Positions 33,358-48,892 of a stretch of DNA of 54,678 nt are shown here, piece by piece. The notes below the pieces were generated by a model. The model worked only from the letters and a program-made list of their open reading frames with translations. It was not told where the DNA came from and searched no databases. The first letter of the stretch is position 1. Every line of letters starts with the position of its first letter. The position numbers and the translations under genes were made by a program. The stretch comes from a virus (Duplodnaviria > Caudoviricetes): IMG/VR virus record IMGVR_UViG_3300012919_001792, positions 1 through 54,678 of that record. One strand, written 5' to 3'.

Positions 33358-33465
33358 TTATTCATAGATATGTTTGTTTTTTTTAGCTTTTTGTATTTTC
33401 TTATTCATCTGTCTTTTCAAACGCAGATACTTAATTTTGGTTTTGATCCAATTTAACCAAGACAT
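33358..33465 (-). CDS. Small basic peptide 1 (35 aa), C-terminus KHIYE; not in the ORF track
   Basis: MSWLNWIKTKIKYLRLKRQMNKKIQKAKKNKHIYE; GAGGAGG SD upstream; start overlaps the end of the SGNH-like gene. Confidence 0.75.
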   Translation of the reverse strand: MSWLNWIKTKIKYLRLKRQMNKKIQKAKKNKHIYE

Positions 33466-34196
33466 ATTTTAACCTCCTCACCTATATAACGAGCAAAATC
33501 AATATGGGCCTCTACAGTGTAATGACCTGTTCTTCCGTCGATATTATCATAATGATTGTTTTTTCTCATGAATTCATGAGCTGTTGATTTATTTTTGTTA
33601 TGGCCAATTACTGATTGATCTTGATAATAACGATTGTATATATGTCTATATCTATTAGTAAGATCCGGTGGATGAGCAAGAAAATGTATCATACAATATT
33701 TTAAATTTTGAGATTTAAGATAATTTGCCAACAGTGTATAGTCTCTAATAAATGTTTTTTCATCTTCAAGTACATTGTGAAAACTGTTGAGTCCTTGCCA
33801 TAGTTGTTTAGCAAAAGGAATGAATTTTAAATCACCACTTAAATCATAACCAACATAAAATTTAGCTTTGTTTTTGTAACACTTTAGATCTTCTGGTACT
33901 TCAAAGTGATATCTCCAAGTGCTTGTCCAGCCTATCAATACTCTTATATCTTTTTCACCATCTGATATTAACTGTTCAATGTCATCGATAGTGTGTAATG
34001 CAATACTTTCATTGTTGCTTCCGCTGAATGCATTGTTTATGTATTGCCATGAGCTGAAGTAACGTTTGTGTAATTGCCCACTCCAGCTTAACTTCCTATT
34101 ATCATCTCTTGGATCCGTACTATGATCATATTGCCCAGCGCCTACCAGTTCAGCACCTGCTGTATGACTGCATCCATTCACATATAGTACTGTCAT
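33453..34196 (-). CDS. SGNH/GDSL-like hydrolase/acyltransferase
   Basis: LYVNGCSHT (block I Ser), GSNNESI, LIGWTS, DGRTGHY; start moved to the ATGA overlap at 34196. Confidence 0.7.
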   Translation of the reverse strand: MTVLYVNGCSHTAGAELVGAGQYDHSTDPRDDNRKLSWSGQLHKRYFSSWQYINNAFSGSNNESIALHTIDDIEQLISDGEKDIRVLIGWTSTWRYHFEVPEDLKCYKNKAKFYVGYDLSGDLKFIPFAKQLWQGLNSFHNVLEDEKTFIRDYTLLANYLKSQNLKYCMIHFLAHPPDLTNRYRHIYNRYYQDQSVIGHNKNKSTAHEFMRKNNHYDNIDGRTGHYTVEAHIDFARYIGEEVKICLG

Positions 34197-34909
34197 TGTT
34201 TTAATCCGTTTTTGATTAAATGTTCTGCCCAAGCCTTGTGTGCATCTTCTCTGTAATGTCCTGTTCTTCCATCAATTGAATTATCATATCCTTGTTGTTC
34301 TAGCCAACCATTCATTGTGTCTTTCCAACTATTTTTATTTAATACCTTTGGATTTTGAAAATAGTGTTCAAACAATTTATGATAGCGTGTTGTTTTTTCA
34401 TAAAACCATAGTGTCTGTACCATACAATAATCAATATTATGCTGTTCAAAATATGTTACCATCATGGTGTAGTCTTTAATAAATGTTCTTTGTTGTTGTT
34501 CATCTGTGTCAGCCAACGCTACCAAGCCTTGCCAAAGTTCTTTTGCGTAAGGTATACTATCATGCTTGTAAGTTAAACCTTGACTGTTGAAGAACTTAAA
34601 TCTGTTATCTGTTTTATCAAAACTACTATCACAGTCATAGTGATATCTATTAGGATCTGTCAAACCAATTAATACAAAACAATCATTGCTGTTGATTGTT
34701 TGTAAATATTCTAATGTATCTAATGCAATACTTTCATTGTTGTTGCCATTTCTAGAAACATTTACATATTCATAGTCAGGAAAAAGTTGTCTGTGTATAT
34801 GTCCTGCGTAACTGTGGTGTTTGTCATATTCAGTACAATTACTTTTTACATACTCCATTTCTCCGCCGCCGGTATGACTACATCCGTTGACGAGAAATAC
34901 CTTAGGCAT
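34193..34909 (-). CDS. SGNH/GDSL-like hydrolase/acyltransferase, tandem paralogue
   Basis: LVNGCSHT, GNNNESI, LIGLTD, DGRTGHY; shares IP(F/Y)AK.LWQGL and TFI.DYT with its neighbour. Confidence 0.7.
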   Translation of the reverse strand: MPKVFLVNGCSHTGGGEMEYVKSNCTEYDKHHSYAGHIHRQLFPDYEYVNVSRNGNNNESIALDTLEYLQTINSNDCFVLIGLTDPNRYHYDCDSSFDKTDNRFKFFNSQGLTYKHDSIPYAKELWQGLVALADTDEQQQRTFIKDYTMMVTYFEQHNIDYCMVQTLWFYEKTTRYHKLFEHYFQNPKVLNKNSWKDTMNGWLEQQGYDNSIDGRTGHYREDAHKAWAEHLIKNGLKQ

Positions 34910-36212
34910 GCTTCTTGCTCCAAGTTTCAAATACATCTACCAATCTAGGATCCAAACTTTTTATAGATTGGTTTCTTAGTAGATCAAAATCTTTTGTACG
35001 ACGAACAAAACGTATTTGCCTTTGTTCTTCGTTTGGCATATATCCTTGAGCTGTTTCACCTGTTTCATTGCCTGTAAAAGTATGAGGTTCATGAAGTTTC
35101 TTTAATATGTCTGCAATTCTTGTGTTACGCTTGATCTTATCAGACAATTTAATTTTTTCACATACTGCACTGAGTTCATCATAGACTTGTTTTTTGTATT
35201 TTTCTGGCAAAATTCTAATATCCAAATCCTTGGGCACAATTACAAAATTGAAACCTATTTTATGATTATGCTCATAGTTGTGATGTTTGTTGTTGTCATA
35301 CCACCATTGCACAACTTTAGGTATTTCAAATATATTATACATCTGCACTGTCATAAGAATATTTGTTTTTGCGATCTGTTGATACTCTTTGTAGTGTTTT
35401 AGTATTTCATTTATCTTGCTTGGATACCTTATATAATCATGACTGTTTGCTATTCCATCAATGCTGAAATTAAGCCAAAGATCTTTGAACTCTGTAAGCA
35501 TTCTTACGACCTTGCCTTGCTTTCTAGTGCCATTTGTAGTAATATCCAATGCTATATTTTTTGCAATATCAGTGTCAACGCAGTACTGAAACATTTTGAT
35601 TACTCCTTGCATAAACATAGGCTCACCACCTGCAATTTTAAGTTTATGCACATAAGGAATTATTTTTTTGAATTCTTCAAACTTTTTGTCATCATCTAAC
35701 CAATTGCCTATTTCATATCCATCATGTCCATAGTATGGATTGAGTTCTGGATTGTCTGTAAGTTCATCCATCAAACCACTGCTGGCAGAAGGAAAGCACA
35801 TTCTACAACGGAGATTACAAAAATTACCAGGACGCCAGTCTAGCCAATTTGGAAAACCATCTGTGTTGCCAGCTTCAACTTCTATGTCCCAGTCATCATG
35901 TGGAGGTCTATAATTATTGGTCAATATACTTCTATCACTGCCACCAGCCGCATCATCCAAATTGTAACAGCCTTGGCAGAGAACTGGTCTTTCTCCGTCC
36001 AACATTTGTTGTCTAATTTTTTGATATTTTTCTCCGCGCCAAATATCTAGAATATTTTCTTTAGAAACATTTCTACTTAATGCATGATCCCAGTCTCCTA
36101 CACAGCATACATGCACAGTGCCATCAGTGTTGATATGACTTTGACTAAAAGGCAAAATACAAAAAGCAGAATTATTGTCTCTATGGTATTCGTACTTTTT
36201 CATTACAGCCAT
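34902..36212 (-). CDS. Radical SAM protein with N-terminal SPASM/twitch domain
   Basis: FCILPF...DGTVHVCC...CQGC; CNLRCRMC; GGEP; TTNGT; SIDG..YIRYP. Confidence 0.9.
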   Translation of the reverse strand: MAVMKKYEYHRDNNSAFCILPFSQSHINTDGTVHVCCVGDWDHALSRNVSKENILDIWRGEKYQKIRQQMLDGERPVLCQGCYNLDDAAGGSDRSILTNNYRPPHDDWDIEVEAGNTDGFPNWLDWRPGNFCNLRCRMCFPSASSGLMDELTDNPELNPYYGHDGYEIGNWLDDDKKFEEFKKIIPYVHKLKIAGGEPMFMQGVIKMFQYCVDTDIAKNIALDITTNGTRKQGKVVRMLTEFKDLWLNFSIDGIANSHDYIRYPSKINEILKHYKEYQQIAKTNILMTVQMYNIFEIPKVVQWWYDNNKHHNYEHNHKIGFNFVIVPKDLDIRILPEKYKKQVYDELSAVCEKIKLSDKIKRNTRIADILKKLHEPHTFTGNETGETAQGYMPNEEQRQIRFVRRTKDFDLLRNQSIKSLDPRLVDVFETWSKKHA

Positions 36213-37291
36213 TCAAAAGAAGGAGTTCTATATTTTTCAGTGATTGCCCAGGTGTTATCTGAATTTAAAGCTGATGAATCAGCAGTGAATGATTCATAAT
36301 GCACTGTATCTTCAACTATTTTTCCAACAGGAACAGGTTCAACAAGTTCAGGTCTAAGACCATAACTTTTATGCCATTGCTGAAACTCTTGTTCCTCCAA
36401 TACATGTTGGAGTGTATTGTTTGGATAAAAAGTAAAGCCCCCTTTGATTTTCCCTACATTTCTTATGTCCCACTCAGTGGGATCATCATATTCTTGAAAA
36501 CATTGAAAATAGTCTTTGCCAGTAATGCTTTTCATTAAAGTTACATCACACTCATCTTTGTCGTCTGGAAAACTTCTAAGTATATCTTCAATCTCAGGCT
36601 CCACATGATATTCATACCATTTTCTTCCATCTTCGTTGAAGACATCTGGTTCTATGCTTATTGACCAAGTTTTTTTGTTATTTTTAACTGCTTTATCTAC
36701 TAGATTTTTTGCTCTTGGACAAAGTCTACTATCTTCGTATATATGTATCCATTTGTTAATTCTATTGTTCGCACTGCTAAATTCATCCCAACAGTTCCAA
36801 ATTGAAAAGTCGTTTCTTTGTAAACTGTGTACCCATTCAAGCACATCACCATCATTTATAAACTTGCTGTCGTATTTTTGTTTTTCTGTTAAATTAAGTT
36901 GCCATGTGGTTTGAGCAATTTGACCCGTTGTAAAACATCTATGTATCAAGTTTGTTTGTTGCCATGGCATATCATCATATGCATGATAAGGAAAGTATTT
37001 GCCTTTTGTAAACTGCCATCCGTCAAAGCATGCTGAGTGAATAATACGATTTACATCTTCAATTGCTTTGTTTATTTCTTTCACTGCTTGAGTTTGTTTT
37101 TCTACGTTTGCAACTTGATCGCCATGATAAAATGGCAAACCTAATCTAGTCATCATTGGTATATTGTTTGTCATTGCATCATTCATAACATTTTTCCAAT
37201 GATTAGCGATTGGAGTATCACAAATTTCTATTACAATGTGATGATTTGGATAACTTACTTTTAAATGTGTTGCTTCTAAATATGTTTTCAT
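36203..37291 (-). CDS. Hypothetical protein embedded in the radical SAM operon
   Basis: 362-aa ORF overlapping its neighbours; TNLIHRCF, INKWIHIYE, GKDYFQCF...DDP; no family recognised. Confidence 0.7.
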   Translation of the reverse strand: MKTYLEATHLKVSYPNHHIVIEICDTPIANHWKNVMNDAMTNNIPMMTRLGLPFYHGDQVANVEKQTQAVKEINKAIEDVNRIIHSACFDGWQFTKGKYFPYHAYDDMPWQQTNLIHRCFTTGQIAQTTWQLNLTEKQKYDSKFINDGDVLEWVHSLQRNDFSIWNCWDEFSSANNRINKWIHIYEDSRLCPRAKNLVDKAVKNNKKTWSISIEPDVFNEDGRKWYEYHVEPEIEDILRSFPDDKDECDVTLMKSITGKDYFQCFQEYDDPTEWDIRNVGKIKGGFTFYPNNTLQHVLEEQEFQQWHKSYGLRPELVEPVPVGKIVEDTVHYESFTADSSALNSDNTWAITEKYRTPSFEWL

Positions 37292-37839
37292 AATTCCACT
37301 AATCCATATGGCATTGGAGGCAATTCATCGTGTTCGCCTTTTTCCAAAAGTTCTAATAAATCTAGTTGGTTGTATCTTTCAACTTTTTTGTTGATTCGAT
37401 CATCAACAGCATGACAAAATCGCATGGCCATATACCAATAGAATGCAACAGCTAAATCATCATCTAGAAGTATACCGTCGTGTAGTCTTTCCATATTGTG
37501 TATTTTTTCAGCAAACATGTTTGAATGTTGCACATAATCAATTGATGTAATTACCACAGGTTTCCAAATGTTAAATTTTTCAAAGATTTCAAAATAATAA
37601 AAAGACTTCCTATAACAGCTACACGCATTTTCTACAGCAAAATTTTTATAGTCATAGACAAATATAGGCATACCAAGTTTGTTTTTTATTTCCACATAAT
37701 TTGTGTACTGCCAATCTCTAAATGCTAGTTTGATTTTGTTGTCAATTACAAAAGCAACATTGTAGTTTTTGAGATGTTGACATGTCAATATCTTGGGAAA
37801 ATCATCTACATCAAATATTGCAATCAGAACCTGTAACAA
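37288..37839 (-). CDS. Hypothetical protein
   Basis: 183-aa ORF in the same operon, ATGA-coupled to the downstream gene. Confidence 0.6.
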   Translation of the reverse strand: MLQVLIAIFDVDDFPKILTCQHLKNYNVAFVIDNKIKLAFRDWQYTNYVEIKNKLGMPIFVYDYKNFAVENACSCYRKSFYYFEIFEKFNIWKPVVITSIDYVQHSNMFAEKIHNMERLHDGILLDDDLAVAFYWYMAMRFCHAVDDRINKKVERYNQLDLLELLEKGEHDELPPMPYGLVEL

Positions 37840-38731
37840 CTCTTTTTCCTTGTGCTTTTTTTCTTTTCACTCGCTTTGGTTTTTCTGCTTTGTCTATTAG
37901 ATGCTTTGCTTTGGGATTAATAATTTCAAACAGATGTTCTGCCCATTGTTTATGTGCTGGTGCCATAAAATGACCATATCTTCCATCTACATTGTCTTTG
38001 TGTCCTCTACGAGAACAAAAAGCATGATAGGTGTCATCTTTAGTTTTACTGATAACACGTTTGTTGTTTAGCCAATGTCTTTTTGCAAAACTATCATTTT
38101 CAAATGCAATTTCACGTTGCATCCAGTCTTCATCACCATATTCTCTTTTTGGTGTTTTAAACACTTTATTCATCATACGTTTCATCCAACCTTTTGGTTT
38201 TTTGTCTAACTTTGCTTGTTGATGTGCAAAATTTTGATCATTGAAAACCACCATAGTATGAAACAAAGGTATTTGTTTTTGTTGAAAAAGTGAATCAACC
38301 ATAAGGTATAGATTTAGAAATCTTTTTTCTTGCAGTACATTGTCAGCATATATTTCAAAATATATATCATTGAGTAACTTGATTTCGCTGGGAATACTTT
38401 CATGTTTGCGAGTATAGTTGTTTATTCTTTCCCTATAAAATCCATACTCAGCATCATAACGTGAAAACCTACGCACAAGCCTCATGGGCTCTGGCCATTG
38501 TATAACTGCTATATCACGTGATGTCAATGAGTCAATGTTTTCTAGTGCAAAGTCAGCCACCATTTCTATGTCTGCACCACCTCTGCTGATGTTGACCTGT
38601 GTTCTCTTTAATTTTTTGGCTAACACTCCGCTCCAGCGTAGTTCAAGATCTGCGTCATGCAATTTATCTGTTTCAGTAATTTCAAAGCCTTCAGTGTGAC
38701 TACAACCAGCTACAAAAAGTTTATCAGTCAT
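37811..38731 (-). CDS. SGNH/GDSL-like hydrolase/acyltransferase with basic C-terminal tail
   Basis: LFVAGCSHTEG, NISRGGA, VIQWP, DGRYGHF; start moved to ATG 38731. Confidence 0.7.
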   Translation of the reverse strand: MTDKLFVAGCSHTEGFEITETDKLHDADLELRWSGVLAKKLKRTQVNISRGGADIEMVADFALENIDSLTSRDIAVIQWPEPMRLVRRFSRYDAEYGFYRERINNYTRKHESIPSEIKLLNDIYFEIYADNVLQEKRFLNLYLMVDSLFQQKQIPLFHTMVVFNDQNFAHQQAKLDKKPKGWMKRMMNKVFKTPKREYGDEDWMQREIAFENDSFAKRHWLNNKRVISKTKDDTYHAFCSRRGHKDNVDGRYGHFMAPAHKQWAEHLFEIINPKAKHLIDKAEKPKRVKRKKAQGKRVVTGSDCNI

Positions 38732-38810
38732 ATATGTGTTTCCCTTTGGCACGTCTATGTCTTAGCCATGTCTTTATTTTCAAACGTATTCTTGTCAACC
38801 ATTTTATCAT
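38724..38810 (-). CDS. Small basic peptide 2 (28 aa), C-terminus KHIYD; not in the ORF track
   Basis: MIKWLTRIRLKIKTWLRHRRAKGKHIYD; ATGA overlap with the upstream radical SAM stop and 8-nt overlap with the downstream SGNH start, filling the gap exactly. Confidence 0.75.
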   Translation of the reverse strand: MIKWLTRIRLKIKTWLRHRRAKGKHIYD

Positions 38811-40027
38811 AGATTATTATTTAACTCCGGAAATGTTTGAGCAAAATTTTCTTTGCGATATAGATCTGCTCGTAAAGATTCTTCTTTGAAATCTTCCCAA
38901 TGCTCAGCGTGTAAATCTTCGCTGTTCATAAAGTTTATCATTTTTTCAAAGTGATCTATGCTTGTTCTACAACTTTTATCAGTAGCGTATTTCCAATCAC
39001 CTATATCAATTGGATTACTTGATAAAAGTTTTTTGCTGATCCATTTTTTAGTATGCTTGGGTAAAACTTTCATATTATAGTAAAAAGGTTCATGACAATA
39101 ACCAAAATCCAAAAGTTCTATATATTGTTTTAAATTGTCATTCCAATACTGAGCAAGCTCTGGAAGATAAGCAATGTTCATCAAACTCACTGTACACCAT
39201 ATTTTGTTTTTAACAATGTTGCGGTCAATGATATTGTTCCACAGCTTTACATTTTCTATTACTTTGTCAAAGTTTGAAGGATGTCTTTGATAGTTGAAAC
39301 GTTCACCTAAATCATCAATGCTCCAATGAAACAACACCATTTTAAAATGATTTAGTTTTTCTGCTACTTCTGGTTTAAAATATGTTCCATTTGTGTTGAA
39401 GATCAATTCAATGTGTTCAGCATGCCCGCTGTCTACACACATGTCTAGCAGTTCAAAAAAAGGCGGTATCATAAATGTTTCGCCGCCATAAACACAGATC
39501 TGTTCAACCTGTGGTAACCAATCATCTAGGGTTTCTTTGTTTGCAGTTATTACACTGTCGTTGCGTTTGTGTTGTACAAATTTTTTATCAAAATATGCCC
39601 ACTGCTTGGAAGTTTCTCTGTGAGCTTCAGTGGTCCACTGACTGCTGATAAATGGATTGCATATACGACATTTGATATTGCAGTGACTTCCAAGTTTTAG
39701 ATCTAAAAGTTTTGGTACAGGATTTGTGGTATCAATATCTTCCAATGGTTTGCTCATATTCAAACGCAAACTTTCAATGCCCGCCGCTTCTTCTTTCCAA
39801 CAGTTTGCACACTCTTCAGGACGTTCATTGTTTAAAAATTTTTGTCTAAGTTCTTTTAGACTATCACTTTCCCATGCTTCTTTGAATCCTGCTTCAGGAA
39901 ACTTTAGTACATCCTCGTTTTTGTTGTGGTATTGTTTGCCCACCTGCCGACAACAGGCTCTATAAGTGCCGTCAGTTTGTATTTCTATTTGGGTCCATGG
40001 TAAACTACAAAAGTTATTGGTACGCAT
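38807..40027 (-). CDS. Radical SAM protein with N-terminal SPASM/twitch domain
   Basis: FCSLPW...DGTYRACC...ECANCW; CNIKCRIC; GGET; NTNGT; start likely ATG 40027. Confidence 0.9.
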   Translation of the reverse strand: MRTNNFCSLPWTQIEIQTDGTYRACCRQVGKQYHNKNEDVLKFPEAGFKEAWESDSLKELRQKFLNNERPEECANCWKEEAAGIESLRLNMSKPLEDIDTTNPVPKLLDLKLGSHCNIKCRICNPFISSQWTTEAHRETSKQWAYFDKKFVQHKRNDSVITANKETLDDWLPQVEQICVYGGETFMIPPFFELLDMCVDSGHAEHIELIFNTNGTYFKPEVAEKLNHFKMVLFHWSIDDLGERFNYQRHPSNFDKVIENVKLWNNIIDRNIVKNKIWCTVSLMNIAYLPELAQYWNDNLKQYIELLDFGYCHEPFYYNMKVLPKHTKKWISKKLLSSNPIDIGDWKYATDKSCRTSIDHFEKMINFMNSEDLHAEHWEDFKEESLRADLYRKENFAQTFPELNNNL

Positions 40028-41174
40028 CTTTACACCGTTGTGTTCTACTACCCATATGAGCCATTTCATCTGCTGTATAGTCTGTCAACAAAGTATTGCC
40101 TTGTCTGTCTTTTTTAATACCTTGTTTTGCTTGTTCTATCAATTCATTTGTACGCAGAGGCATAAAAGTATGAGTACAATAATTTAAAAATTCTGGAGAT
40201 TTCTGTACAATTTCATACTCCAAATCAATTGCTTCCTGCATACGTCCAGGCATAACCATAAAATAAACTTCCATGTGTCCTCTGTGCTTGCCTTCAAGAT
40301 CGCGATCAATTTTTTCTTGACAAATGCCATCAATGATGTTAGATATTTTTTCTTCATATCTATCAATATATTCAAAATGTATGCTGATGTTAAGGTCACT
40401 ATAGTGTATCAATTCTCTGTAATATTTGGGTAATCTACTGCCGTTACTGTGAGTGCTTAATTTGTGTCCATCATCGTAAACCATTTTAGCAAATTCAACA
40501 TAATTTTTGTGTACTGTAGGTTCTCCTCCACTGACAACAAAATTTGCTTTAGCACCCAACAAAAATTTATTTTTGATCAATTGATATGCATCATACAGCT
40601 GATCCCAACTCTTTTTCTTTTCTGTGTTGTTGTGTACATCAGCAGGACAGTAGCTACAATTAAAATTACAACGCCTGCCCATTTCCCAAAAAACCTGTTT
40701 GTATCCACCAAGATGTGTTCGTTCAACTGCGGCACTGGTATTGTTTCCGATTGAATTAGGACCAAGATTGAATTTGTGATCTGCTGGCTTTTGCGAAAGT
40801 TTTAGTAAACTGTCTTTACTGGTTCTCTTAGCGTCATATTTTGGTATAAACATATCTGCACCACAACTACAAGTAGCCACAGGACAATCAATCCAATCTT
40901 GTGGTATACGTAGATAACCATCATATACATTGCCTAGTGTGCCTGTAAATATTTGAAAACCGTTGTTGTTGATTCTAGTTCCTGCTCCACAGCTTGCCAA
41001 CTGTACAAAGCCATCAAAGTCTATGTTTATATTCTCAATACCAGCCGCACATTTCCATCCTAAAAAATTATTAATACGTTTTGCTACAACTTCTTCCGTG
41101 CTGAGGTCACTGAAGTAACCTTCACTATCATAAACACGAACAGGTCTACCAACTGTAAAATCACTGTCAATCAT
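40014..41174 (-). CDS. Radical SAM protein, Cys-rich auxiliary domain at the N-terminus
   Basis: WKCAAG...IDFDG...ASC...CPVATCSC; CNFNCSYC; SGGEPT; HSNGSR. Confidence 0.9.
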   Translation of the reverse strand: MIDSDFTVGRPVRVYDSEGYFSDLSTEEVVAKRINNFLGWKCAAGIENINIDFDGFVQLASCGAGTRINNNGFQIFTGTLGNVYDGYLRIPQDWIDCPVATCSCGADMFIPKYDAKRTSKDSLLKLSQKPADHKFNLGPNSIGNNTSAAVERTHLGGYKQVFWEMGRRCNFNCSYCPADVHNNTEKKKSWDQLYDAYQLIKNKFLLGAKANFVVSGGEPTVHKNYVEFAKMVYDDGHKLSTHSNGSRLPKYYRELIHYSDLNISIHFEYIDRYEEKISNIIDGICQEKIDRDLEGKHRGHMEVYFMVMPGRMQEAIDLEYEIVQKSPEFLNYCTHTFMPLRTNELIEQAKQGIKKDRQGNTLLTDYTADEMAHMGSRTQRCKDAYQ

Positions 41175-42663: not shown

Positions 42664-44050
42664 AATATTGTACAGCCTCGTAAAGATCTGGAATACTTTT
42701 TTGCAAACTTTGGTTGCGTATAATGTCAAGTTTTTCAGTGTGTTTCAAAAACTCTTCTTTGTGTGTTACAGTATTGTCCCAACCCAACAGTTGGTTTTCA
42801 ATATCATCAGCAAGCAAAAAATCAATCACAGATTGGTATTTTTTAATCAAATGTTCGCTTAGTGCAATACTACAGTTTTTTGTAGTCCATTCAAACATTT
42901 CATGATATTTGTCCACCACCAGCTGTTTTCTAGCTTTTGGATAATTCTGCATGGTTAGAAATTTAGGGCCATGACAGATGTGTAATGCCATTGTTGCATC
43001 AAATGTTTCAAAGTTGTTGTTGGTGTACCATTTTACCATGTCTGGCATCTGCATCACATTGAATATTGTAATTGTAGGTGCAATAGTGGCACTAATATTA
43101 GGATATTTTTTTGTAAGTTCATAAAACCTTTTTATGTTTCTTTCTATTATGTGCCATTTACTAGGAAAACGTATGTAATCCTGTACATCATGTAAACCGT
43201 CAATGCTCATGGTCATTCTTACACGTTTAAACTTGCTCCAAATTTCCCAAGCATTGGTGGGAATAATAAACATATTACTATTGTATTCTAGATTTATATT
43301 TTTTGCAAAATCGTTGTCAATTGCATATTGTAGAATTTCCCAATATTCTTTTATCACAGTGGGTTCACCACCTGTCATATAGATTCTATCAATGTCCTTC
43401 ATGTTTGCTTTAAGATCATCTACAAATGGTTGTTTGTTCCAATCACCAATTTCACTGCTATATCTTTCACCATCTTTTTTGATTTCATAATTTTCATCAT
43501 AGAAGCCAATGGTTTTATGACCCATTTTAACCCAGTCGTCAAGCCATAAGCTACTATCGCCAGGTCCACACATTCTACATTTTTGATTACATTTGTTGCC
43601 AAGTCGTATATCATAATATTTTACTGGAATCTCAGCAATGTTTATAGTACCATCAGCCTGTGTGTTTTGTTTCATTTTTTCTAGATCATCAAAATATTCT
43701 CTATTCATATATGTTCTTAAACTGTCAACACCCAGCTTTTCTGTTTCCCAACATTGTCTACACTCAGGATGTTGTTCACCACGTAGCATGCTGGCTCTAA
43801 TTTCTTTGAGTAATGGAGCATTTCTCGTGTCTGCAATGCTACTGTTTTGTGCTGTATAGTATTCACCTGATTCTTTGCGTAATTTTCCAAATTGGAGATC
43901 AGGGTGTGTACTCTTACCAAATACGCATTCACAACAGACTCTGAACATTCCATTGCTGGTAATTGCACTTTGCATAAATGGTTTTACACAAATAGTGCCG
44001 TCTCTGTGTTTTGCTGACATGGGTTCAGGCTTCATCTTGTATGACCTCAT
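42656..44050 (-). CDS. Radical SAM protein with N-terminal SPASM/twitch domain
   Basis: ICVKPF...GMFRVCC...ECRQCW; CNQKCRMC; TGGEPT; SIDG..YIRFP. Confidence 0.9.
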   Translation of the reverse strand: MRSYKMKPEPMSAKHRDGTICVKPFMQSAITSNGMFRVCCECVFGKSTHPDLQFGKLRKESGEYYTAQNSSIADTRNAPLLKEIRASMLRGEQHPECRQCWETEKLGVDSLRTYMNREYFDDLEKMKQNTQADGTINIAEIPVKYYDIRLGNKCNQKCRMCGPGDSSLWLDDWVKMGHKTIGFYDENYEIKKDGERYSSEIGDWNKQPFVDDLKANMKDIDRIYMTGGEPTVIKEYWEILQYAIDNDFAKNINLEYNSNMFIIPTNAWEIWSKFKRVRMTMSIDGLHDVQDYIRFPSKWHIIERNIKRFYELTKKYPNISATIAPTITIFNVMQMPDMVKWYTNNNFETFDATMALHICHGPKFLTMQNYPKARKQLVVDKYHEMFEWTTKNCSIALSEHLIKKYQSVIDFLLADDIENQLLGWDNTVTHKEEFLKHTEKLDIIRNQSLQKSIPDLYEAVQYYE

Positions 44051-45032
44051 ATCTGTTTTTTGGTAGTAGCTTTTTGCTCATGATATCAAAATTACAATGA
44101 CACATGCTTTTGGTACACATTGTAGGTTTTACTGGCCAACGTATTTTTTCAGGCTGTTTCATATTGCCCAACGGACCACCAACTCTACACCATCCAATCA
44201 TAACACTACCATCAAAGTCTACAACTATCTGCTCTAGTCCACTCCAGCACAACCAACCTTCCCAATTATTGGTTTTATCATTTATAAATCTGTGAGCACT
44301 TGAATTTTGTTTTAAATTATTAACATCATCCCACATATCCATACTACCACGATATATCTTCCATTCTTTGGTGTGCTTAATTTTTTTTCCAAATTTACTC
44401 CATTGATGATCAATCAATTCAGTTTGTTCAGGCGTGTATTGATATAATGTTTCACCAAAATCAATAATCAATGGTTGTAGTGCTAAACTTATATTTGGTA
44501 TTTTGATTAATTGTTTTGCAACCTTGACACAGGTTGGCCATATTTTTGGATCATAGTGCATCATTACATTAGCATGAGTTCTGCACTGCTCACTCATTAT
44601 TTTAACAACTTCTATATAGTGATCAGCTTTGCCTTCTTCTGGATGAAAACTCAAACACACATGATCAAATTTATCTTTGTTTTTCTCCCACCAACGTATT
44701 GTTCTACTACCGTTGCTGATGAATCCAATATCATGTCCGCGTTCTTTGATGTATTCGGCCGCCCGTATAAAATCACGCCACAGCGTAACTTCGCCTCCGG
44801 TGAATTCAAAATATACTTTGCGTGGTGCGTATCTATCTATCACTGCGTCAATAAATTTTCGCACTACTTCAAAATCATTCCAACCATAACTGCCATCATT
44901 TAGAACACTAGGGCAATAACTACACGTGAAATTACACATGTTGCCAAGATTCCAATTTACCACAATCCAATCTTTGCAGGCTGGATGATGATGTTCAAGT
45001 CTATTGTAAAAATTTTGGGGACCTAATGGCAT
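44025..45032 (-). CDS. Radical SAM protein, Cys-rich auxiliary domain at the C-terminus
   Basis: CNFTCSYC; TGGEVT; ISNGSR; WLCWSG...VDFDG...GWC...CTKSMCHC. Confidence 0.9.
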   Translation of the reverse strand: MPLGPQNFYNRLEHHHPACKDWIVVNWNLGNMCNFTCSYCPSVLNDGSYGWNDFEVVRKFIDAVIDRYAPRKVYFEFTGGEVTLWRDFIRAAEYIKERGHDIGFISNGSRTIRWWEKNKDKFDHVCLSFHPEEGKADHYIEVVKIMSEQCRTHANVMMHYDPKIWPTCVKVAKQLIKIPNISLALQPLIIDFGETLYQYTPEQTELIDHQWSKFGKKIKHTKEWKIYRGSMDMWDDVNNLKQNSSAHRFINDKTNNWEGWLCWSGLEQIVVDFDGSVMIGWCRVGGPLGNMKQPEKIRWPVKPTMCTKSMCHCNFDIMSKKLLPKNRYEVIQDEA

Positions 45033-45051
45033 ATAATACTGTCTCTAATTA

Positions 45052-45732
45052 TTATTCTACTCGCAGTAGACCATTGCGTTTGTCAAATAGTTTTTCTGCT
45101 ATAAAACCAGCAGTGTCATATTTGTGCAGTCTAATTTTTTTCCAGTTTTGATGATGAGTTCTATGATATCCTTCGCCAGCAATGAAAAAGTTTAGCCAAG
45201 GTACATCAGCTCCGCCTTCAGTTCTGTGTCCTACTGTGTTCAGCAAACCAAATCCTATCTTGGCAAACACAAAAGGAACTGCACAGAATCCTAACCAGAA
45301 GTATGGACTAATTAACACTGCTATTATATTACATATTATCAACAAATGCAACCAGTATTTATGGCAAAAAACTATGTCTTTGTTTCGAAACAAATCACGC
45401 ACATATCTAGTTGGAAATTCACGCACTTTTAAATTGCTGAAAAGCACACGCCAATATCCAACATATTTTGGTGCATGTGGATCTTCTTCGTGATCTGCAT
45501 GTTCGTGATGCATTCTGTGAATTGCTACCCATCCTATAGGCGAATCCACACAGCAGATCATCAACATACCCAATCCAATACGTTCGTACCATTTGGGCAC
45601 TTTGAACTGTTGATGTGTGTAGTGTCTGTGTAGTAGTATACTCACAGCCCAATGGCTAATTATTTGACTCCATACAAGTCCAAATAACAAACTCCATAAA
45701 AATAATTCAAGGCTCCAATAAAAACCAATCAT
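45052..45732 (-). CDS. Membrane fatty-acid (acyl-lipid delta-9-type) desaturase
   Basis: His boxes HRHYTH, HRMHH and GEGYHRTHH; DPHAP; hydrophobic segments. Confidence 0.88.
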   Translation of the reverse strand: MIGFYWSLELFLWSLLFGLVWSQIISHWAVSILLHRHYTHQQFKVPKWYERIGLGMLMICCVDSPIGWVAIHRMHHEHADHEEDPHAPKYVGYWRVLFSNLKVREFPTRYVRDLFRNKDIVFCHKYWLHLLIICNIIAVLISPYFWLGFCAVPFVFAKIGFGLLNTVGHRTEGGADVPWLNFFIAGEGYHRTHHQNWKKIRLHKYDTAGFIAEKLFDKRNGLLRVE

Positions 45733-45748
45733 TTATACTCCAATTTAA

Positions 45749-46450
45749 TTGTCATATATACTTATGATGGGTTATAGAGACATAATATTGAATGATGGCT
45801 ACACTATTATTCCTGAATTTTTAGATCGAGCAGACTTGAAAAAAGTTGTAGATCTTGAAAGGAATACTTCTCCATGGAAAGGTCTACACAAAGAATTTGG
45901 CTGGCAAAATGAAAAGATCTTTGACAAACAAGATTACGTGCATTATTGGAGTGTACAGGTAAAAAAACAAACACATTGGTTGCAAGAAAAACTGCATCCT
46001 ATTGTCAGTGACATCATGCAAACCAACTACAAATGGTTTTTGGTTGACTTTCATACAACAAATCCTGGCAGTGACTATATACTAGCACACATTGATACAC
46101 CATATCAATTTAGACCATGGAATCATATCACAGAATTAATTGCTGTACAATGTTTGATAGCAGTGGATGATTTTACGCACGAAAGTGGTGCCACACGTCT
46201 TATAGCTGGTTCACATCGCGAACAGACATTGGTTGAAGATATAGGCAGTAAAGAATTAGACGATAAACTTTTAGCTGAGGGCAGTGATTTTGTAGCACCA
46301 GCTGGAAGCGTTGTGATATATCATCCTCGAACCATACACAGTACAATGCCAAACATGTCCAACAAACCTAGGAGTGCATTGTTGTTGTGTGCAGTGCGTC
46401 CTGATCTCATTGATAGTTTGGTACACTATCAACCACAATACGAGGAATAA
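45749..46450 (+). CDS. Phytanoyl-CoA dioxygenase-family 2OG-Fe(II) oxygenase
   Basis: DGYTIIPEFL, AHIDTPY (HxD), DDFTHESGATRLIAGSH, GSVVIYHPRTIHS..PN.S..PRSAL; the true start may be ATG 45764 or 45767. Confidence 0.88.
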   Translation: MSYILMMGYRDIILNDGYTIIPEFLDRADLKKVVDLERNTSPWKGLHKEFGWQNEKIFDKQDYVHYWSVQVKKQTHWLQEKLHPIVSDIMQTNYKWFLVDFHTTNPGSDYILAHIDTPYQFRPWNHITELIAVQCLIAVDDFTHESGATRLIAGSHREQTLVEDIGSKELDDKLLAEGSDFVAPAGSVVIYHPRTIHSTMPNMSNKPRSALLLCAVRPDLIDSLVHYQPQYEE

Positions 46451-46454
46451 TCAA

Positions 46455-46982
46455 TTGAGATTAAAAACACTTAATAAATTAAAAATACTTTTCTTTGGTT
46501 TACCAGGAGCAGGAAAAACCACACTAGCAAAAGACTTTGCAGATCTAATAGGTGGTGTACATGTTAACGCTGACGAAGTAAGAAAAAAATACGAAGGACA
46601 CGATAGACAAAATTGGGACTTTTCCAATGCTGGCAGAATACGTCAAGCAGAGCGTATGCGACTTATATCAGATGGCATCATGCAGGCGGGTAAAATGCCG
46701 GTGGTGGATTTTGTTTGTCCAACAAATGAAACACGAGCAGTGTTTGAACCCAACAGTTTTCAAACCTTTACAGTATTCATGGACACCATTACAGAATCTG
46801 AATATGCAGATACAAATGCAGTGTTTGAAAAACCAGCACCAAACTATGTTGACTATCACGTACAAGCATGGTTCAAAGATACACACGAAGTACTCGTGCC
46901 TGTTGTAGAACGCTACATGCAAAAACAACAAAACACATTGATTGGGTATATAGGAAGAAGAGTAGATGAAGAGAGTGTATAG
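46455..46982 (+). CDS. Adenylylsulfate-kinase-like P-loop kinase
   Basis: GLPGAGKTT, NADEVR, WDFSNAGRIRQAERM, DFVCPT, DTNAVFEKP; TTG start at 46455 with GAGGA SD. Confidence 0.7.
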   Translation: MRLKTLNKLKILFFGLPGAGKTTLAKDFADLIGGVHVNADEVRKKYEGHDRQNWDFSNAGRIRQAERMRLISDGIMQAGKMPVVDFVCPTNETRAVFEPNSFQTFTVFMDTITESEYADTNAVFEKPAPNYVDYHVQAWFKDTHEVLVPVVERYMQKQQNTLIGYIGRRVDEESV

Positions 46983-47274
46983 AACAAACAGGCTGGGCCA
47001 AATCAAAAACTTTATAAAAGAGTCACACAGACTATCTCCAGTGGCGTTTTATTGTGAAATGGTTGAAACACTATTGCTGTTAACAGCTTCAGCAATTCTT
47101 ACATTCACAGTGCTGGATCCTGCTACAGAAATATTCATTCCGTTGTATCTAGCAGGATCAATACTTGGAGTTATCAGCACAGTGATACGCAAGGCATTTT
47201 TTGCCATAGTGCTTTGTGCTTGGTTTGTTGTGATGAACAGTATTGCACTTGTTACATTGGTGTTTGGTGCATGA
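46966..47274 (+). CDS. Small membrane protein (about 3 hydrophobic helices)
   Basis: Hydrophobic segments; stop is ATGA-coupled to the carbamoyltransferase start. Confidence 0.65.
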   Translation: MKRVYRTNRLGQIKNFIKESHRLSPVAFYCEMVETLLLLTASAILTFTVLDPATEIFIPLYLAGSILGVISTVIRKAFFAIVLCAWFVVMNSIALVTLVFGA

Positions 47275-48782
47275 TCACTTGGGGTTGGACTGGACTTTCG
47301 CATGACGCTAGTATGGCAGTGTTTCACAAAGATAATTTGGTGTTTGCGGCACACAGTGAACGCTACAGCAAAAGAAAAAATGATAAAATAATTCATCCTG
47401 GACTTATGCAAGACGCATTTGCTTATGGTCCACCTGATGAAATATTCTTTTATGAAACACCATGGCTCAAAAAAACACGACAATTATACGCAGGACAATA
47501 CGGTTTATTAAAAAAAGAATCGCCTGATTATTTTTTAAAAATTGTAAATGATACACTTAGAAAAAGTAGTATCAGCAACGGCAACTTACCACCTAGTCAG
47601 TATACAAGACATCATCACAGTCATGCCGCCGGAGGCTACTATACATCCACATACGATCATGCAACCATTGTTGTTTTGGACAGTATTGGTGAATGGGAAA
47701 CATTCACCATATGGGAAGGCATAGATAATCAACTGCACAAACGTTTTTCACAATCATATCCACACAGCGTAGGAATATGGTACAGTGCTATGACACAGCG
47801 TATAGGATTGAAACCACAGGAACATGAATACATATTGATGGGAATGGCCGCAATAGGAGATCCAAACAAATACTACAATGACATTAAAAAAGATTTTATT
47901 GCACGTATGCCTGATCAATCAAATCCGCGTGTAAAGTTTAAACGCAACTGTCATAGAGGTTGTTTGGATTGGAGACCTGATCTACGCACACCACAGGACT
48001 ATGCTGATATTGCCAGTGCCACACAGCGAATATACGAAGAAATATTCACAGGCATTCTAGAATACGCTCGTATTCATTATCCTTCACGCAACCTTGTGTT
48101 GATGGGTGGCTGTGTGTTAAATTGTGTTGCAAACAGTTTGGCCGCTGATTACTATGATGATATATGGATAATGCCCAACCCAGGTGATGCTGGTTCGGCC
48201 ATTGGCTGTGTTCTAGCACACAAAAAGAAAAGAATAAATTTTGATCATGCTTACTTGGGTACAGATATTCCAGGTCCTTATCCTATAGAAGAAGTACTGG
48301 AAGATCTACACGAACACAAGATTACAGCGGTTGCTTCGGGCCGAGCCGAGTTTGGACCACGAGCACTAGGACATAGAAGTATCTTGGCCGATCCCCGAGG
48401 CTCCGATGTAAAAGACAGAGTAAATCAATTGAAACAGCGTGAAGCATTTAGACCTTTTGCACCAATGATACTTGAAGAATATGCTGATCAATACTTTGAA
48501 ATGCCAGTGCCTACTTCCCCGTACATGCAGTATGTGGCAAAATGCAAGCATCCTGATAAATTTCCTGCTATAGTACACTACGACAACACCAGTAGAGTGC
48601 AGACTGTTGGCAAAGAAATGGGTCCTGTACGTAAACTACTAGAGCGTTGGCACAGTGAAACAGGCTGTCCAATGCTGTTGAACACCAGTCTTAACATCAA
48701 AGGTCAGCCATTGGTTAATTGCAACCATGATGCAAATAGATGGATTATTAAAAATGGAGTTGACATTTGCTTGCCCGTATAG
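47271..48782 (+). CDS. O-carbamoyltransferase (NodU/CmcH/TobZ family)
   Basis: SHDAS, HSERYS.RKND, HHHSHAAGGYY, EYILMGMAA.G, GGCVLNCVAN, PGDAGSAIG, EFGPRALGHRSILADP, KQREAFRPFAP, LLNTSLN; start moved to ATG 47271. Confidence 0.95.
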   Translation: MITWGWTGLSHDASMAVFHKDNLVFAAHSERYSKRKNDKIIHPGLMQDAFAYGPPDEIFFYETPWLKKTRQLYAGQYGLLKKESPDYFLKIVNDTLRKSSISNGNLPPSQYTRHHHSHAAGGYYTSTYDHATIVVLDSIGEWETFTIWEGIDNQLHKRFSQSYPHSVGIWYSAMTQRIGLKPQEHEYILMGMAAIGDPNKYYNDIKKDFIARMPDQSNPRVKFKRNCHRGCLDWRPDLRTPQDYADIASATQRIYEEIFTGILEYARIHYPSRNLVLMGGCVLNCVANSLAADYYDDIWIMPNPGDAGSAIGCVLAHKKKRINFDHAYLGTDIPGPYPIEEVLEDLHEHKITAVASGRAEFGPRALGHRSILADPRGSDVKDRVNQLKQREAFRPFAPMILEEYADQYFEMPVPTSPYMQYVAKCKHPDKFPAIVHYDNTSRVQTVGKEMGPVRKLLERWHSETGCPMLLNTSLNIKGQPLVNCNHDANRWIIKNGVDICLPV

Positions 48783-48788
48783 TACAAT
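48760..48788 (+). promoter_or_regulatory. Possible sigma70 promoter overlapping the carbamoyltransferase 3' end
   Basis: TTGACA (48760-48765), 17 nt, TACAAT (48783-48788); lies in coding sequence, so it may be chance. Confidence 0.45.
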
Positions 48789-48892
48789 TATTAGAGTATT
48801 TGCCTATTGTAGGCAAAAGATTGAAAAAACGTAGACGTAGACGTGAATTGCTGGAAAAAATAAAACAGCAGGATCCATACATCTACGAATAG
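48767..48892 (+). CDS. Small basic peptide 3 (about 41 aa), C-terminus DPYIYE; not in the ORF track
   Basis: TTG start with GGAG 7 nt upstream gives MLARIVQLLEYLPIVGKRLKKRRRRRELLEKIKQQDPYIYE; overlaps the carbamoyltransferase stop; exact start uncertain. Confidence 0.65.
   Translation: MLARIVQLLEYLPIVGKRLKKRRRRRELLEKIKQQDPYIYE

What the first reader, a model, noticed from the sequence alone, without database searches (positions are those of the whole stretch)
33358..48892. Three unannotated basic micro-peptides ending in [H/Y]-I-Y-[D/E], each overlapping an SGNH or carbamoyltransferase gene: candidate tyrosine-shuttle acyl/carbamoyl relay in a phage
Seen in sequence: three ORFs below the track cut-off. 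33358-33465(-) MSWLNWIKTKIKYLRLKRQMNKKIQKAKKNKHIYE; 38724-38810(-) MIKWLTRIRLKIKTWLRHRRAKGKHIYD; 48767-48892(+) ...KRLKKRRRRRELLEKIKQQDPYIYE. All have an amphipathic N-terminal helix, a polybasic linker and a penultimate Tyr. All overlap neighbouring genes: two abut GCSH-type SGNH genes and one abuts the carbamoyltransferase. Established: in the Dlt and related MBOAT/SGNH systems, a C-terminal FIY-containing motif (DltX, or the MBOAT tail) carries the acyl group on Tyr to an SGNH-fold transferase. Bacterial carbamoyltransferase loci such as sxtI-sxtJ-sxtK include a small ...PFIY... peptide. Inference: the carbamoyltransferase loads the peptide Tyr, and the SGNH paralogues pass the group to virion or host-surface glycans, giving an MBOAT-free relay with dedicated peptide/SGNH pairs.
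Basis: partly seen in the sequence, partly recalled or inferred. Interest (0 to 1): 0.9.

Follow-up and report, generated by a model that had tools for sequence, protein, structure and literature searches.

The report
Tyrosine-tailed microproteins partnering carbamoyltransferase and SGNH enzymes
Three tiny, very basic phage proteins ending in Ile-Tyr-Asp/Glu are real members of a large, unnamed microprotein family that sits beside (or is fused to) carbamoyltransferase and SGNH enzymes in bacteria and phages, and may carry a chemical group on its one invariant tyrosine.

Summary
The three basic micro-ORFs ending [H/Y]-I-Y-[D/E] exist at the stated coordinates. No shuffle of the window gave even one such ORF.

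They are conserved coding genes. Orthologues lie at the same places in related viral contigs, with third-position-dominated change.

They belong to a widespread, uncurated family of about 33 residues, typically ending ...KELRKRDPFIYK. A profile hit at least 5,265 protein clusters, all "hypothetical", none with a Pfam or NCBIfam model.

Linkage is strong in both directions:
- 46 of 57 loci seeded on the carbamoyltransferase carry the motif.
- 47 of 50 peptide-seeded loci with enough flank carry the carbamoyltransferase.
- DUF6071-type SGNH genes often abut the peptide.
- In 11 loci, from two SGNH lineages, the tail is fused to the SGNH C-terminus.

Tyr is the only invariant residue.

The motif is not the published FXYXXF, and there is no transmembrane helix and no MBOAT. 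An N-terminal-twitch radical SAM gene is also a frequent neighbour, which keeps a precursor-peptide rival alive.

Best guess: a Tyr carrier arm between carbamoyltransferase and SGNH, at about 0.4.

The parts
33358..33465 (-). p1 microprotein, MSWLNWIKTKIKYLRLKRQMNKKIQKAKKNKHIYE (35 aa)
   Evidence: ORF. Orthologues lie after the SGNH gene in two viral contigs, G001 and G002. Differences by codon position between window and G002 are 9/4/18, and HIY[DE] is written with different synonymous codons. One near-identical protein, P0005, was found among 1.84e9 representatives. It hits the peptide profile at E 1.3e-10.
33453..34196 (-). SGNH-1, a DUF6071-like SGNH-fold protein with GCSH block I. The likely start is the ATG at 34196; the ORF list gives a TTG at 34232.
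   Evidence: Alignment A5 conserves Ser10, Gly59, Asn62 and His225. The AF2 model has pLDDT 86.3 and pTM 0.86. Foldseek hits TesA, acetyl xylan esterases and PatB.
34193..34909 (-). SGNH-2, a paralogue of SGNH-1
   Evidence: Paralogy; SGNH profile E 3.3e-78.
34902..36212 (-). Radical SAM protein with an N-terminal twitch domain
   Evidence: NF033640 at E 3.5e-89; Pfam Radical_SAM and SPASM.
37811..38731 (-). SGNH-3. Its ATG at 38731 lies inside the last codons of p2.
   Evidence: The orthologue in G002 has the same overlap with its p2.
38724..38810 (-). p2 microprotein, MIKWLTRIRLKIKTWLRHRRAKGKHIYD (28 aa)
   Evidence: ORF. The orthologue MKKRIAKIKVKIKSLIRKFRNRKKQRHIYE lies upstream of the SGNH-3 orthologue in G002. 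G001 lacks both p2 and SGNH-3. Peptide profile E 5.8e-06.
38807..40069 (-). Radical SAM protein with an N-terminal twitch domain, directly upstream of p2 (ATGA overlap)
   Evidence: NF033640 at E 1.8e-93; sequence.
47271..48782 (+). Class III (NodU/CmcH/TobZ-type) carbamoyltransferase. The likely start is the ATG at 47271.
   Evidence: Pfam Carbam_trans_N at 2.2e-35 and Carbam_trans_C at 2.5e-51; start codon.
48767..48892 (+). p3 microprotein, (M)LARIVQLLEYLPIVGKRLKKRRRRRELLEKIKQQDPYIYE (41 aa, TTG start)
   Evidence: ORF. Orthologues ending DPFIYE, DPFIYD or DPFIYK directly follow the carbamoyltransferase in 5 of 10 viral loci, and the other 5 hold a family member upstream. ATG start in L048 and L051. 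Peptide profile E 1e-10.
53387..54025 (+). Possible fourth, divergent SGNH-like ORF
   Evidence: Weak hit to the SGNH profile only, E 9.8e-06. Not studied further.

Best explanation
SHOWN: p1, p2 and p3 are genuine, translationally coupled microproteins. They belong to a large unnamed family of about 28-41 aa: a strongly basic body, then (D-P)-[F/Y/H]-[I/L/M]-Y followed by 0-1 residue. The family is genomically tied to a class III carbamoyltransferase and to DUF6071-type SGNH-fold enzymes, and in some bacteria it is the C-terminal tail of the SGNH enzyme itself.

INFERRED mechanism: the peptide or tail is a swinging carrier arm.
1. The carbamoyltransferase makes carbamoyl-AMP from ATP and carbamoyl phosphate, which is known chemistry of the family.
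2. It transfers the carbamoyl group to the phenolic OH of the invariant Tyr. This parallels HypF carbamoylating the C-terminal Cys of HypE.
3. The aryl carbamate is then attacked by the SGNH nucleophile Ser (block I, GCS/GDS). This parallels acyl-Tyr to Ser transfer in DltX-DltD and PatA-PatB.
4. The SGNH enzyme passes the group to its acceptor, probably a sugar or glycan hydroxyl or amine, given the sugar-nucleotide genes nearby.

In the phage, one carbamoyltransferase with three peptides and three or four SGNH paralogues would give several acceptor specificities. The system would be cytoplasmic and MBOAT-free.
For: - Chance is excluded and coding selection is shown.
- In 57 loci seeded on carbamoyltransferase homologues (10 viral, 47 from one-genome-per-species contigs), the peptide profile hit 34 and the SGNH profile hit 34, with all three components in 20. 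Adding fused tails and variants gives 46 of 57 with the motif.
- Reciprocally, among the 80 kept peptide-seeded metagenome loci, 47 of the 50 with at least 2.5 kb downstream carry the carbamoyltransferase downstream on the same strand. Of the 41 with both flanks, 23 have an SGNH hit, and in 15 it abuts the peptide.
- Rosetta-stone fusions occur in 11 loci from two SGNH lineages: L068, L073, L084, L086, L087, L088, L090 and L102 in one, and L062, L064 and L078 in the other. The SGNH ORF itself ends in a basic tail with DP[FY]IY(P) or DRFIYP.
- Tyr is the only invariant column in 31 and in 29 aligned peptides, and the Ile before it is at least 90% conserved. The two divergent copies found without asking for Tyr still have it (DPFMYK, PPMLYK).
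- The SGNH fold and the Ser/Gly/Asn/His signature are intact, and both carbamoyltransferase domains are present.
- In the phages, p2 is present with SGNH-3 (window, G002) and both are absent from G001.
- Co-fold of SGNH-1 with p1: weak support. Score 0.52, best of 3 controls 0.01. The mark was reached by 116 of 157 solved complexes and 2 of 215 mismatched pairs. However, a score of 0.60 or under was given by only 18 of those 157 solved complexes and by both mismatches that passed. The runs agree in at least 87% of contacts and the partner's pLDDT is at least 80. My own alignments were used, so the counts hold only roughly.
- Precedents in print: an acyl-Tyr shuttle to SGNH (PMC12148441 passages) and HypF carbamoylating HypE's C-terminal Cys (PMC9633730 passage; PMC12130793 abstract start).
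Against: - There is no chemical evidence at all.
- The motif is not FXYXXF: only 0-1 residue follows Tyr, and the window copies start with H/Y.
- I saw no transmembrane segment in the peptide sequences (by eye; no predictor was run). No MBOAT appeared among the 21 ORFs scanned.
- Class III carbamoyltransferases described in print act directly on their acceptors (PMC9633730 passages), so a relay is not obviously needed.
- The AF2 model of a natural SGNH-tail fusion leaves the tail unplaced, with pLDDT 36-38 for residues 259-290.
- 25 of 29 SGNH-seeded viral loci have neither peptide nor carbamoyltransferase, so the SGNH family does not generally need the peptide.
- An N-terminal-twitch radical SAM gene lies upstream in 46 of the 47 peptide-seeded loci with at least 3.5 kb upstream. 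That is a closer association than SGNH has in that phylogenetically narrow sample.
- The Tyr invariance is partly circular, because the peptides were collected with patterns and profiles that contain Tyr.
- Translation itself has not been observed.
Confidence: 0.4

Rival explanations
1. Non-catalytic adaptor or activator, in the manner of MbtH-like proteins. The basic helix and the DPFIY end dock onto the carbamoyltransferase and/or the SGNH enzyme (or onto membrane or nucleic acid). They assemble or activate the enzymes, with Tyr acting as a binding hot-spot rather than a carrier.
For: - Tight operon coupling and fusion to one partner.
- The whole peptide is conserved, not only the Tyr.
- Weak co-fold support for binding to SGNH-1: score 0.52, best of 3 controls 0.01. 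The mark was reached by 116 of 157 solved complexes and 2 of 215 mismatched pairs, but a score of 0.60 or under by only 18 of those 157 and by both mismatches that passed. The runs agree in at least 87% of contacts and the partner's pLDDT is at least 80. My own alignments were used, so the counts hold only roughly.
- Known class III carbamoyltransferases need no carrier (PMC9633730 passages).
Against: In the fused forms the tail is already tethered to the SGNH enzyme, yet it keeps the exact DP[FY]IY end. This argues that the end does something beyond binding SGNH. A pure binding hot-spot would be expected to tolerate Phe or Trp now and then, and none was seen. The hydrophobic moment is not special, so a membrane-anchor role is not indicated.
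Confidence: 0.25
2. Precursor or scaffold peptide. The N-terminal-twitch radical SAM enzyme modifies the C-terminal Ile-Tyr, as in mycofactocin or PQQ. The carbamoyltransferase, SGNH and sugar enzymes then tailor or release a Tyr-derived small molecule. The mycofactocin and PQQ comparison is recalled, not read here.
For: - p2 directly follows such a radical SAM gene with an ATGA overlap.
- The window has four NF033640 paralogues plus two other radical SAM genes.
- 46 of the 47 peptide-seeded loci with at least 3.5 kb upstream have one upstream.
Against: - Only 6 of the 57 more diverse carbamoyltransferase-seeded loci have such a radical SAM gene within 2.5 kb, none of them a fused locus.
- Fusion of a precursor to the C-terminus of an SGNH enzyme in 11 loci would be odd.
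- No PqqD/RRE-type domain appeared in the Pfam scans of neighbours.
- Most copies have a residue after Tyr.
- The peptide-seeded sample is the best 80 of 422 confirmed hits, so it is phylogenetically narrow.
Confidence: 0.2
3. No protein function. The small ORFs exist only for translational coupling or regulation of the neighbouring genes, and the IY[DE] end is a by-product of overlapping start signals (tATGa).
For: The last codons of p2 contain the ATG of SGNH-3, both in the window and in G002. All three ORFs overlap neighbouring genes.
Against: - p1 in G001 and p3 in the window use TAC, so there is no ATG.
- The HIY[DE] end of p1 is written with three different Ile codons.
- The peptide sequence is conserved across phyla, with at least 5,265 clusters.
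- Fusions to SGNH exist.
Confidence: 0.03

Closest known systems
DltX microprotein and the C-terminal 'acyl shuttle' tail of bacterial MBOATs (PatA), which hand an acyl group to SGNH proteins (DltD, PatB)
   Same: A microprotein or an enzyme tail with an invariant Tyr in an F-x-Y context at the extreme C-terminus, partnered with an SGNH-fold enzyme. It occurs either free or fused to a partner enzyme (PMC12148441 passages).
   Different: - The motif is FXYXXF there and (DP)F-I-Y plus 0-1 residue here.
- There is no transmembrane helix and no MBOAT here, and the proteins lack signal peptides, so the system is cytoplasmic.
- The fusion partner here is the SGNH enzyme, not the loading enzyme.
- The presumed loader is an ATP-dependent carbamoyltransferase, not an acyl-CoA or carrier-protein-dependent MBOAT.
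HypF-HypE: S-carbamoylation of the C-terminal Cys of HypE by a YrdC-like/Kae1-like carbamoyltransferase
   Same: An enzyme of the same superfamily forms carbamoyl-AMP and transfers the carbamoyl group to a side chain at the flexible C-terminal end of a partner protein (PMC9633730 passage; PMC12130793 abstract start).
   Different: The acceptor there is a Cys thiol in a PRIC end of a 300-plus-residue protein (size recalled), and the group becomes cyanide. Here the candidate acceptor is a Tyr hydroxyl of a roughly 33-residue peptide, and the next enzyme is an SGNH protein.
Class III O-carbamoyltransferases (TobZ, NodU, CmcH, GdmN, SxtI)
   Same: The window enzyme has both family domains over their full length. 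[quoted passage not shown]
   Different: The characterised members carbamoylate small molecules directly, and no peptide partner is described in the passages read. Whether SxtJ or SxtK are related to this family was not tested.
Pfam DUF6071 (PF19547), an uncharacterised SGNH-like family
   Same: Bacterial and viral relatives of the window's SGNH paralogues reach the DUF6071 model, and a profile of all of them unites them.
   Different: The three window proteins themselves do not reach the Pfam model at E 0.01. No paper in the searched library mentions DUF6071.
Mycofactocin precursor MftA and PQQ precursor PqqA (recalled, not read here)
   Same: A small peptide with a conserved Tyr at or near the C-terminus, encoded beside a radical SAM enzyme with an auxiliary-cluster domain.
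   Different: No RRE/PqqD partner was found. Tyr is usually not the last residue. The tightest partner is a carbamoyltransferase. Fusions to SGNH occur.

Membership tests
DltX / MBOAT C-terminal acyl-shuttle motif | C-terminal hexapeptide FXYXXF | tested here: not met
   The window peptides end HIYE, HIYD and YIYE, and the relatives end FIYK or FIY. The F-x-Y part is present in the relatives, but the x-x-F part is absent. The motif was taken from PMC12148441 passages.
DltX / MBOAT C-terminal acyl-shuttle motif | Invariant Tyr close to the C-terminus | tested here: met
   Tyr is the only invariant column in A6 (31 sequences) and A8 (29 sequences). The collection was biased towards Tyr, but the divergent copies found without that filter also have it.
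DltX / MBOAT C-terminal acyl-shuttle motif | Membrane microprotein (transmembrane helix) working with an MBOAT | tested here: not met
   Read by eye, the peptides have 9-14 K/R and no long uncharged hydrophobic run; no transmembrane predictor was run. There was no MBOAT hit among the 21 ORFs of 32.4-50.9 kb or the 65 neighbours in bacterial and viral loci. The rest of the phage genome is not in hand.
DltX / MBOAT C-terminal acyl-shuttle motif | Covalent acyl-Tyr intermediate passed to the SGNH Ser | not testable with these tools
   Needs biochemistry.
SGNH hydrolase/transferase fold | Conserved Ser (block I), Gly, Asn and His, and an alpha/beta SGNH fold | tested here: met
   A5 conserves S10, G59, N62 and H225. 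Block I is GCS in most sequences and GDS in L079 and L098. The model has pLDDT 86.3. Foldseek hits TesA and other GDSL esterases at E about 1e-5 and PatB at 1.3e-3. The Asp of the triad is not conserved.
Pfam DUF6071 (PF19547) | Match to the family model above its cut-off | tested here: inconclusive
   The window paralogues give no hit at E 0.01. Relatives in viral and bacterial loci do hit, with scores up to 228 bits.
Class III carbamoyltransferase (NodU/CmcH/TobZ) | Kae1-like N-terminal domain and YrdC-like C-terminal domain | tested here: met
   PF02543 covers residues 29-332 and PF16861 covers residues 364-518. Invariant His and Asp columns appear in A4. Mapping onto the TobZ or GdmN metal ligands was not done.
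RiPP / cofactor precursor peptide (MftA- or PqqA-like) | Adjacent radical SAM maturase plus a peptide-binding RRE/PqqD partner | tested here: inconclusive
   A radical SAM gene (NF033640) is adjacent to p2. It lies upstream in 46 of 47 peptide-seeded loci but in only 6 of 57 carbamoyltransferase-seeded loci. No RRE/PqqD hit was found.
SxtK / SxtJ small ORFs beside SxtI | Sequence relationship to SxtK | not tested
   No SxtK sequence was fetched. Only a review passage was read.

The most novel reading that the evidence does not exclude
A widespread, previously unnamed class of protein-borne group carriers. These are ~33-residue cytoplasmic microproteins, or the equivalent C-terminal tails of SGNH enzymes. 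Their invariant near-terminal tyrosine would be O-carbamoylated by a TobZ/HypF-type carbamoyltransferase, and it would then hand the group to dedicated SGNH transferases. That would be an MBOAT-free, membrane-independent counterpart of the DltX/PatA acyl-Tyr shuttle. T4-like phages would have multiplied it (three carriers, three to four SGNH paralogues) to decorate several targets.
Probability: 0.35. Interest if true: 0.9.

Novelty: new variant of a known kind. Interest (0 to 1): 0.8.

Why it matters
If the tyrosine is a carrier, acyl-Tyr shuttling would no longer be only a device for crossing the membrane in MBOAT systems. It would become a general cytoplasmic way of moving activated groups between enzymes. 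It would also be the first protein-borne O-carbamoyl carrier.

Even without that mechanism, the result has value:
- It defines a very common microprotein family, with at least 5,265 clusters at 90% identity, all labelled hypothetical, that no curated library holds.
- It gives a first functional context to DUF6071.
- It gives a first functional context to a large subfamily of carbamoyltransferases found in polysaccharide-type gene clusters and in marine and freshwater phages.
- It shows that ORFs below usual gene-calling cut-offs can be core parts of enzyme systems.

Tried and rejected
- **No close relatives in GenBank phages.** Megablast of 33.0-49.5 kb, tblastn of SGNH-3 and tblastn of p1 against GenBank phages all gave no match.
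- **Single-protein scans failed.** Scans of viral contigs with SGNH-3 and SGNH-1 found no confirmed relative. An alignment was needed.
- **Narrow profile was too narrow.** A profile of the four phage-type peptides (A3) searched over 1.84e9 representatives gave only 1 hit, P0005. The same A3 scan of viral contigs returned only the two known loci. The family became visible only after seeding on the carbamoyltransferase.
- **No curated model.** Pfam and NCBIfam scans of 5+3 window-type and 15 bacterial-type peptides gave nothing near any cut-off.
- **Natural fusion fold.** In the AF2 model of L087 (290 aa) the SGNH core is confident, but the tail 259-290 has pLDDT 36-38. No cis-docking is predicted. 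Only 8 rows of that alignment carry a tail.
- **Search for longer, fused forms.** This gave 48 hits, mostly singletons on short contigs that look like over-extended or read-through gene calls. Only P0144 and P0145 also hit the SGNH profile, P0152 and P0155 the carbamoyltransferase profile, and P0151 the radical SAM profile. I put no weight on this search.
- **Electrostatic complementarity.** The SGNH partners are not clearly more acidic than peptide-less relatives, and SGNH-3 is basic.
- **The 345-aa protein** between the radical SAM gene and the peptide in bacterial loci is not detectably related to the window's 362-aa protein.
- **Chance and pure translational coupling** are rejected.
- **Library searches:** 'DUF6071' 0 papers; 'DUF5989' 0 papers; 'DPFIYK' and 'RDPFIY' 0 occurrences among the 10 papers listed, of 156 that held any of the three terms. 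Of the 12 papers that hold at least 2 of the three terms carbamoyltransferase, SGNH and microprotein, the 11 listed showed no relevant work, judged by titles and abstract starts.

Full report
**What the window is.** It is a 54.7-kb fragment of an IMG/VR viral record, estimated about 15% complete. It has T4-like hallmarks: a gp55-type late sigma factor, an SbcD-like nuclease and baseplate wedge and hub proteins. Downstream of the structural genes lies a long block of auxiliary enzymes:
- three paralogous GCSH-motif proteins;
- six radical SAM proteins, four of them of the N-terminal-twitch type NF033640;
- a fatty-acid-desaturase-like protein, a PhyH dioxygenase and an APS-kinase-like P-loop protein;
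- a NodU/CmcH-type carbamoyltransferase;
- a GT8 glycosyltransferase.

**The observation.** Only four stop-to-stop segments in all six frames end in IY[DE], and three of them are these basic peptides. None of 300 Markov shuffles gave even one basic ORF with that ending.
- p1 starts 13 nt inside the end of SGNH-1, behind a GGAGG.
- p2 starts on the stop of a radical SAM gene (ATGA), and its last codons hold the ATG of SGNH-3.
- p3 overlaps the last 16 nt of the carbamoyltransferase. It starts with TTG where its orthologues have ATG.
- The claimed amphipathic helix is not statistically distinctive.

**They are conserved coding genes.** A profile of the SGNH paralogues and four metagenomic homologues retrieved 29 viral loci. 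The two loci with a syntenic cluster carry a p1 orthologue directly after the SGNH gene.
- The neighbouring SGNH genes match SGNH-1 at only 55% and 31% identity, yet the peptide stays at 69%.
- Differences between window and G002 fall 9/4/18 on codon positions 1/2/3.
- The HIY[DE] end of p1 is written with ATC, ATA and ATT, with TAT and TAC, and with GAA, GAT and GAG.
- G002 also has a p2 orthologue overlapping the start of its SGNH-3 orthologue. G001 lacks both.
- p3 orthologues ending DPFIYE, DPFIYD or DPFIYK follow the carbamoyltransferase in 5 of 10 related viral loci. The other 5 carry a family member upstream.

**The family is large and unnamed.** I seeded on the carbamoyltransferase in one-genome-per-species contigs, which gave 47 loci, and added the 10 viral loci.
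- A basic micro-ORF ending (DP)[FYH][IL]Y plus 0-1 residue lies on the enzyme's strand within 2.5 kb in 41 of 57 loci by pattern and in 34 of 57 by profile.
- With fused tails and two divergent copies, DPFMYK and PPMLYK, the count is 46 of 57. Three of the remaining 11 loci are cut short.
- The typical bacterial form is MNWIKNLI.RI.LEIRYRKKLKELRKRDPFIYK.
- A profile search of 5.8e9 protein clusters gave 5,265 hits at E 0.01 or better among the 8,000 candidates scored. The 120 listed were mostly 33-34 residues, named "hypothetical" where named, and carried no Pfam domain.
- Pfam and NCBIfam hold no model for it.
- The ESM Atlas clusters are unnamed.
- Neither the motif strings nor DUF6071 occur in the searched literature.

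**Linkage.** In the 57 carbamoyltransferase-seeded loci, 34 have a DUF6071-like SGNH gene and 20 have all three components. Pfam confirms DUF6071 in 8 of the 19 loci whose neighbours were scanned (L053, L061, L074, L079, L080, L082, L085, L098). The same scan found sugar-nucleotide and glycosyltransferase genes. Gene boundaries touch or overlap; L067 and L079, for example, run upstream gene - peptide - SGNH - carbamoyltransferase.

The reciprocal test used the best 80 of 422 confirmed peptide-seeded metagenome loci, so the sample is phylogenetically narrow:
- 47 of the 50 loci with at least 2.5 kb downstream have the carbamoyltransferase downstream on the same strand.
- 23 of the 41 with both flanks have an SGNH hit, and in 15 it abuts the peptide.
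- 46 of the 47 with at least 3.5 kb upstream have an N-terminal-twitch radical SAM gene upstream.

In the more diverse carbamoyltransferase-seeded set, that radical SAM type is present in only 6 of 57 loci. Conversely, 25 of 29 SGNH-seeded viral loci have neither peptide nor carbamoyltransferase. So the peptide goes with the carbamoyltransferase first. SGNH and the radical SAM gene are frequent further partners.

**Fusions.** In 8 actinobacterial loci the roughly 290-residue SGNH protein begins with block I (YANGCSMTYGSEL). It ends with a basic tail closing in DPYIYP, DRFIYP or DPFIYP. In a second SGNH lineage, with block I GDSxTFG, L062, L064 and L078 end in ...KRKDPFIY, whereas their relatives L066 and L099 have the peptide as a separate ORF. 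The exact end is thus kept even when the tail is already tethered to the SGNH enzyme. This is the strongest argument that the end does more than bind that enzyme.

**The enzymes.** The GCSH proteins have the SGNH fold. Ser, Gly, Asn and His are conserved in 25 aligned sequences, and block I is GCS in most and GDS in two. The AF2 model has pLDDT 86.3. Foldseek's best matches are TesA and other GDSL esterases, with PatB further down. They start directly with block I, so they have no signal peptide. The carbamoyltransferase has both domains over their full length.

**Mechanism.** Print supports two precedents:
- In Dlt and PatAB, an invariant Tyr in a C-terminal FXYXXF motif, on a microprotein or on the MBOAT's own tail, carries the acyl group to the SGNH Ser (PMC12148441 passages).
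- HypF, which like the class III carbamoyltransferases works through carbamoyl-AMP, carbamoylates the C-terminal Cys of HypE (PMC9633730 passage). That HypF shares the YrdC-like and Kae1-like domains is recalled, not read here.

It remains inference.
- A co-fold of SGNH-1 with p1 gave only weak support. The score was 0.52 and the best of 3 controls 0.01. The mark was reached by 116 of 157 solved complexes and 2 of 215 mismatched pairs. A score of 0.60 or under was given by only 18 of those 157 and by both mismatches that passed. The runs agree in at least 87% of contacts and the partner's pLDDT is at least 80. My own alignments were used, so the counts hold only roughly.
- A natural fusion folded alone left the tail unplaced.
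- The motif fails the FXYXXF definition.
- There is no membrane to cross.
- Known class III enzymes act directly on their acceptors.

The rivals are a non-catalytic adaptor or activator, and a precursor peptide for the radical SAM enzyme. Neither is excluded. A purely regulatory coupling ORF is essentially excluded.

**Verdict.** The family and its enzyme partnership appear undescribed in the libraries and literature searched. I rate it a new variant of a known kind, with interest 0.8.

Noticed in passing
window 34902-36212, 38807-40069, 41167-42729, 42656-44050 (all -); also 40014-41174 and 44025-45032: There are four paralogous radical SAM proteins with an N-terminal twitch domain (NF033640, E 1e-58 to 5e-105). 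Two further radical SAM genes sit in the same minus-strand block. This is an unusual concentration for a phage. The same radical SAM type lies upstream of the peptide in 46 of 47 peptide-seeded metagenome loci.
   Followed up: partly
window 46966-47274 (+): A 102-aa ORF with hydrophobic, membrane-like stretches and no family hit. Its stop overlaps the ATG of the carbamoyltransferase (ATGA). Whether it corresponds to the SxtJ-type small membrane proteins beside other carbamoyltransferases was not tested.
   Followed up: no
window 12419-26305 (+): A single 4,628-aa ORF following the baseplate wedge gene, presumably a giant fibre or structural protein.
   Followed up: no
window 37811-37960 (-), the C-terminus of SGNH-3: SGNH-3 carries its own basic C-terminal extension (...KAEKPKRVKRKKAQGKRVVTGSDCNI) without the IY motif, which gives the protein a pI of 9.4.
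   Followed up: no
L065:396-1070 and proteins P0131, P0132, P0136, P0139: In some bacterial loci the peptide is followed by a roughly 215-225-aa protein with a GNAT-like glycine-rich motif (judged by eye). In some called proteins the peptide is joined in frame to its N-terminus; the P0132 cluster has 30 member sequences. This may be a real fusion or a read-through call.
   Followed up: partly
protein P0021 (59 aa): This family member has the N-terminal half duplicated in tandem (MRWIKNIINQIR... then ...LIWVKNIIGRIR...) before a single DPFIYK end.
   Followed up: no
window 45052-45732 (-), 45749-46450 (+), 46374-46982 (+): A fatty-acid-desaturase-like membrane protein, a PhyH dioxygenase and an APS-kinase-like P-loop protein sit between the radical SAM block and the carbamoyltransferase. 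An APS-kinase-like gene also occurs in bacterial locus L082.
   Followed up: no
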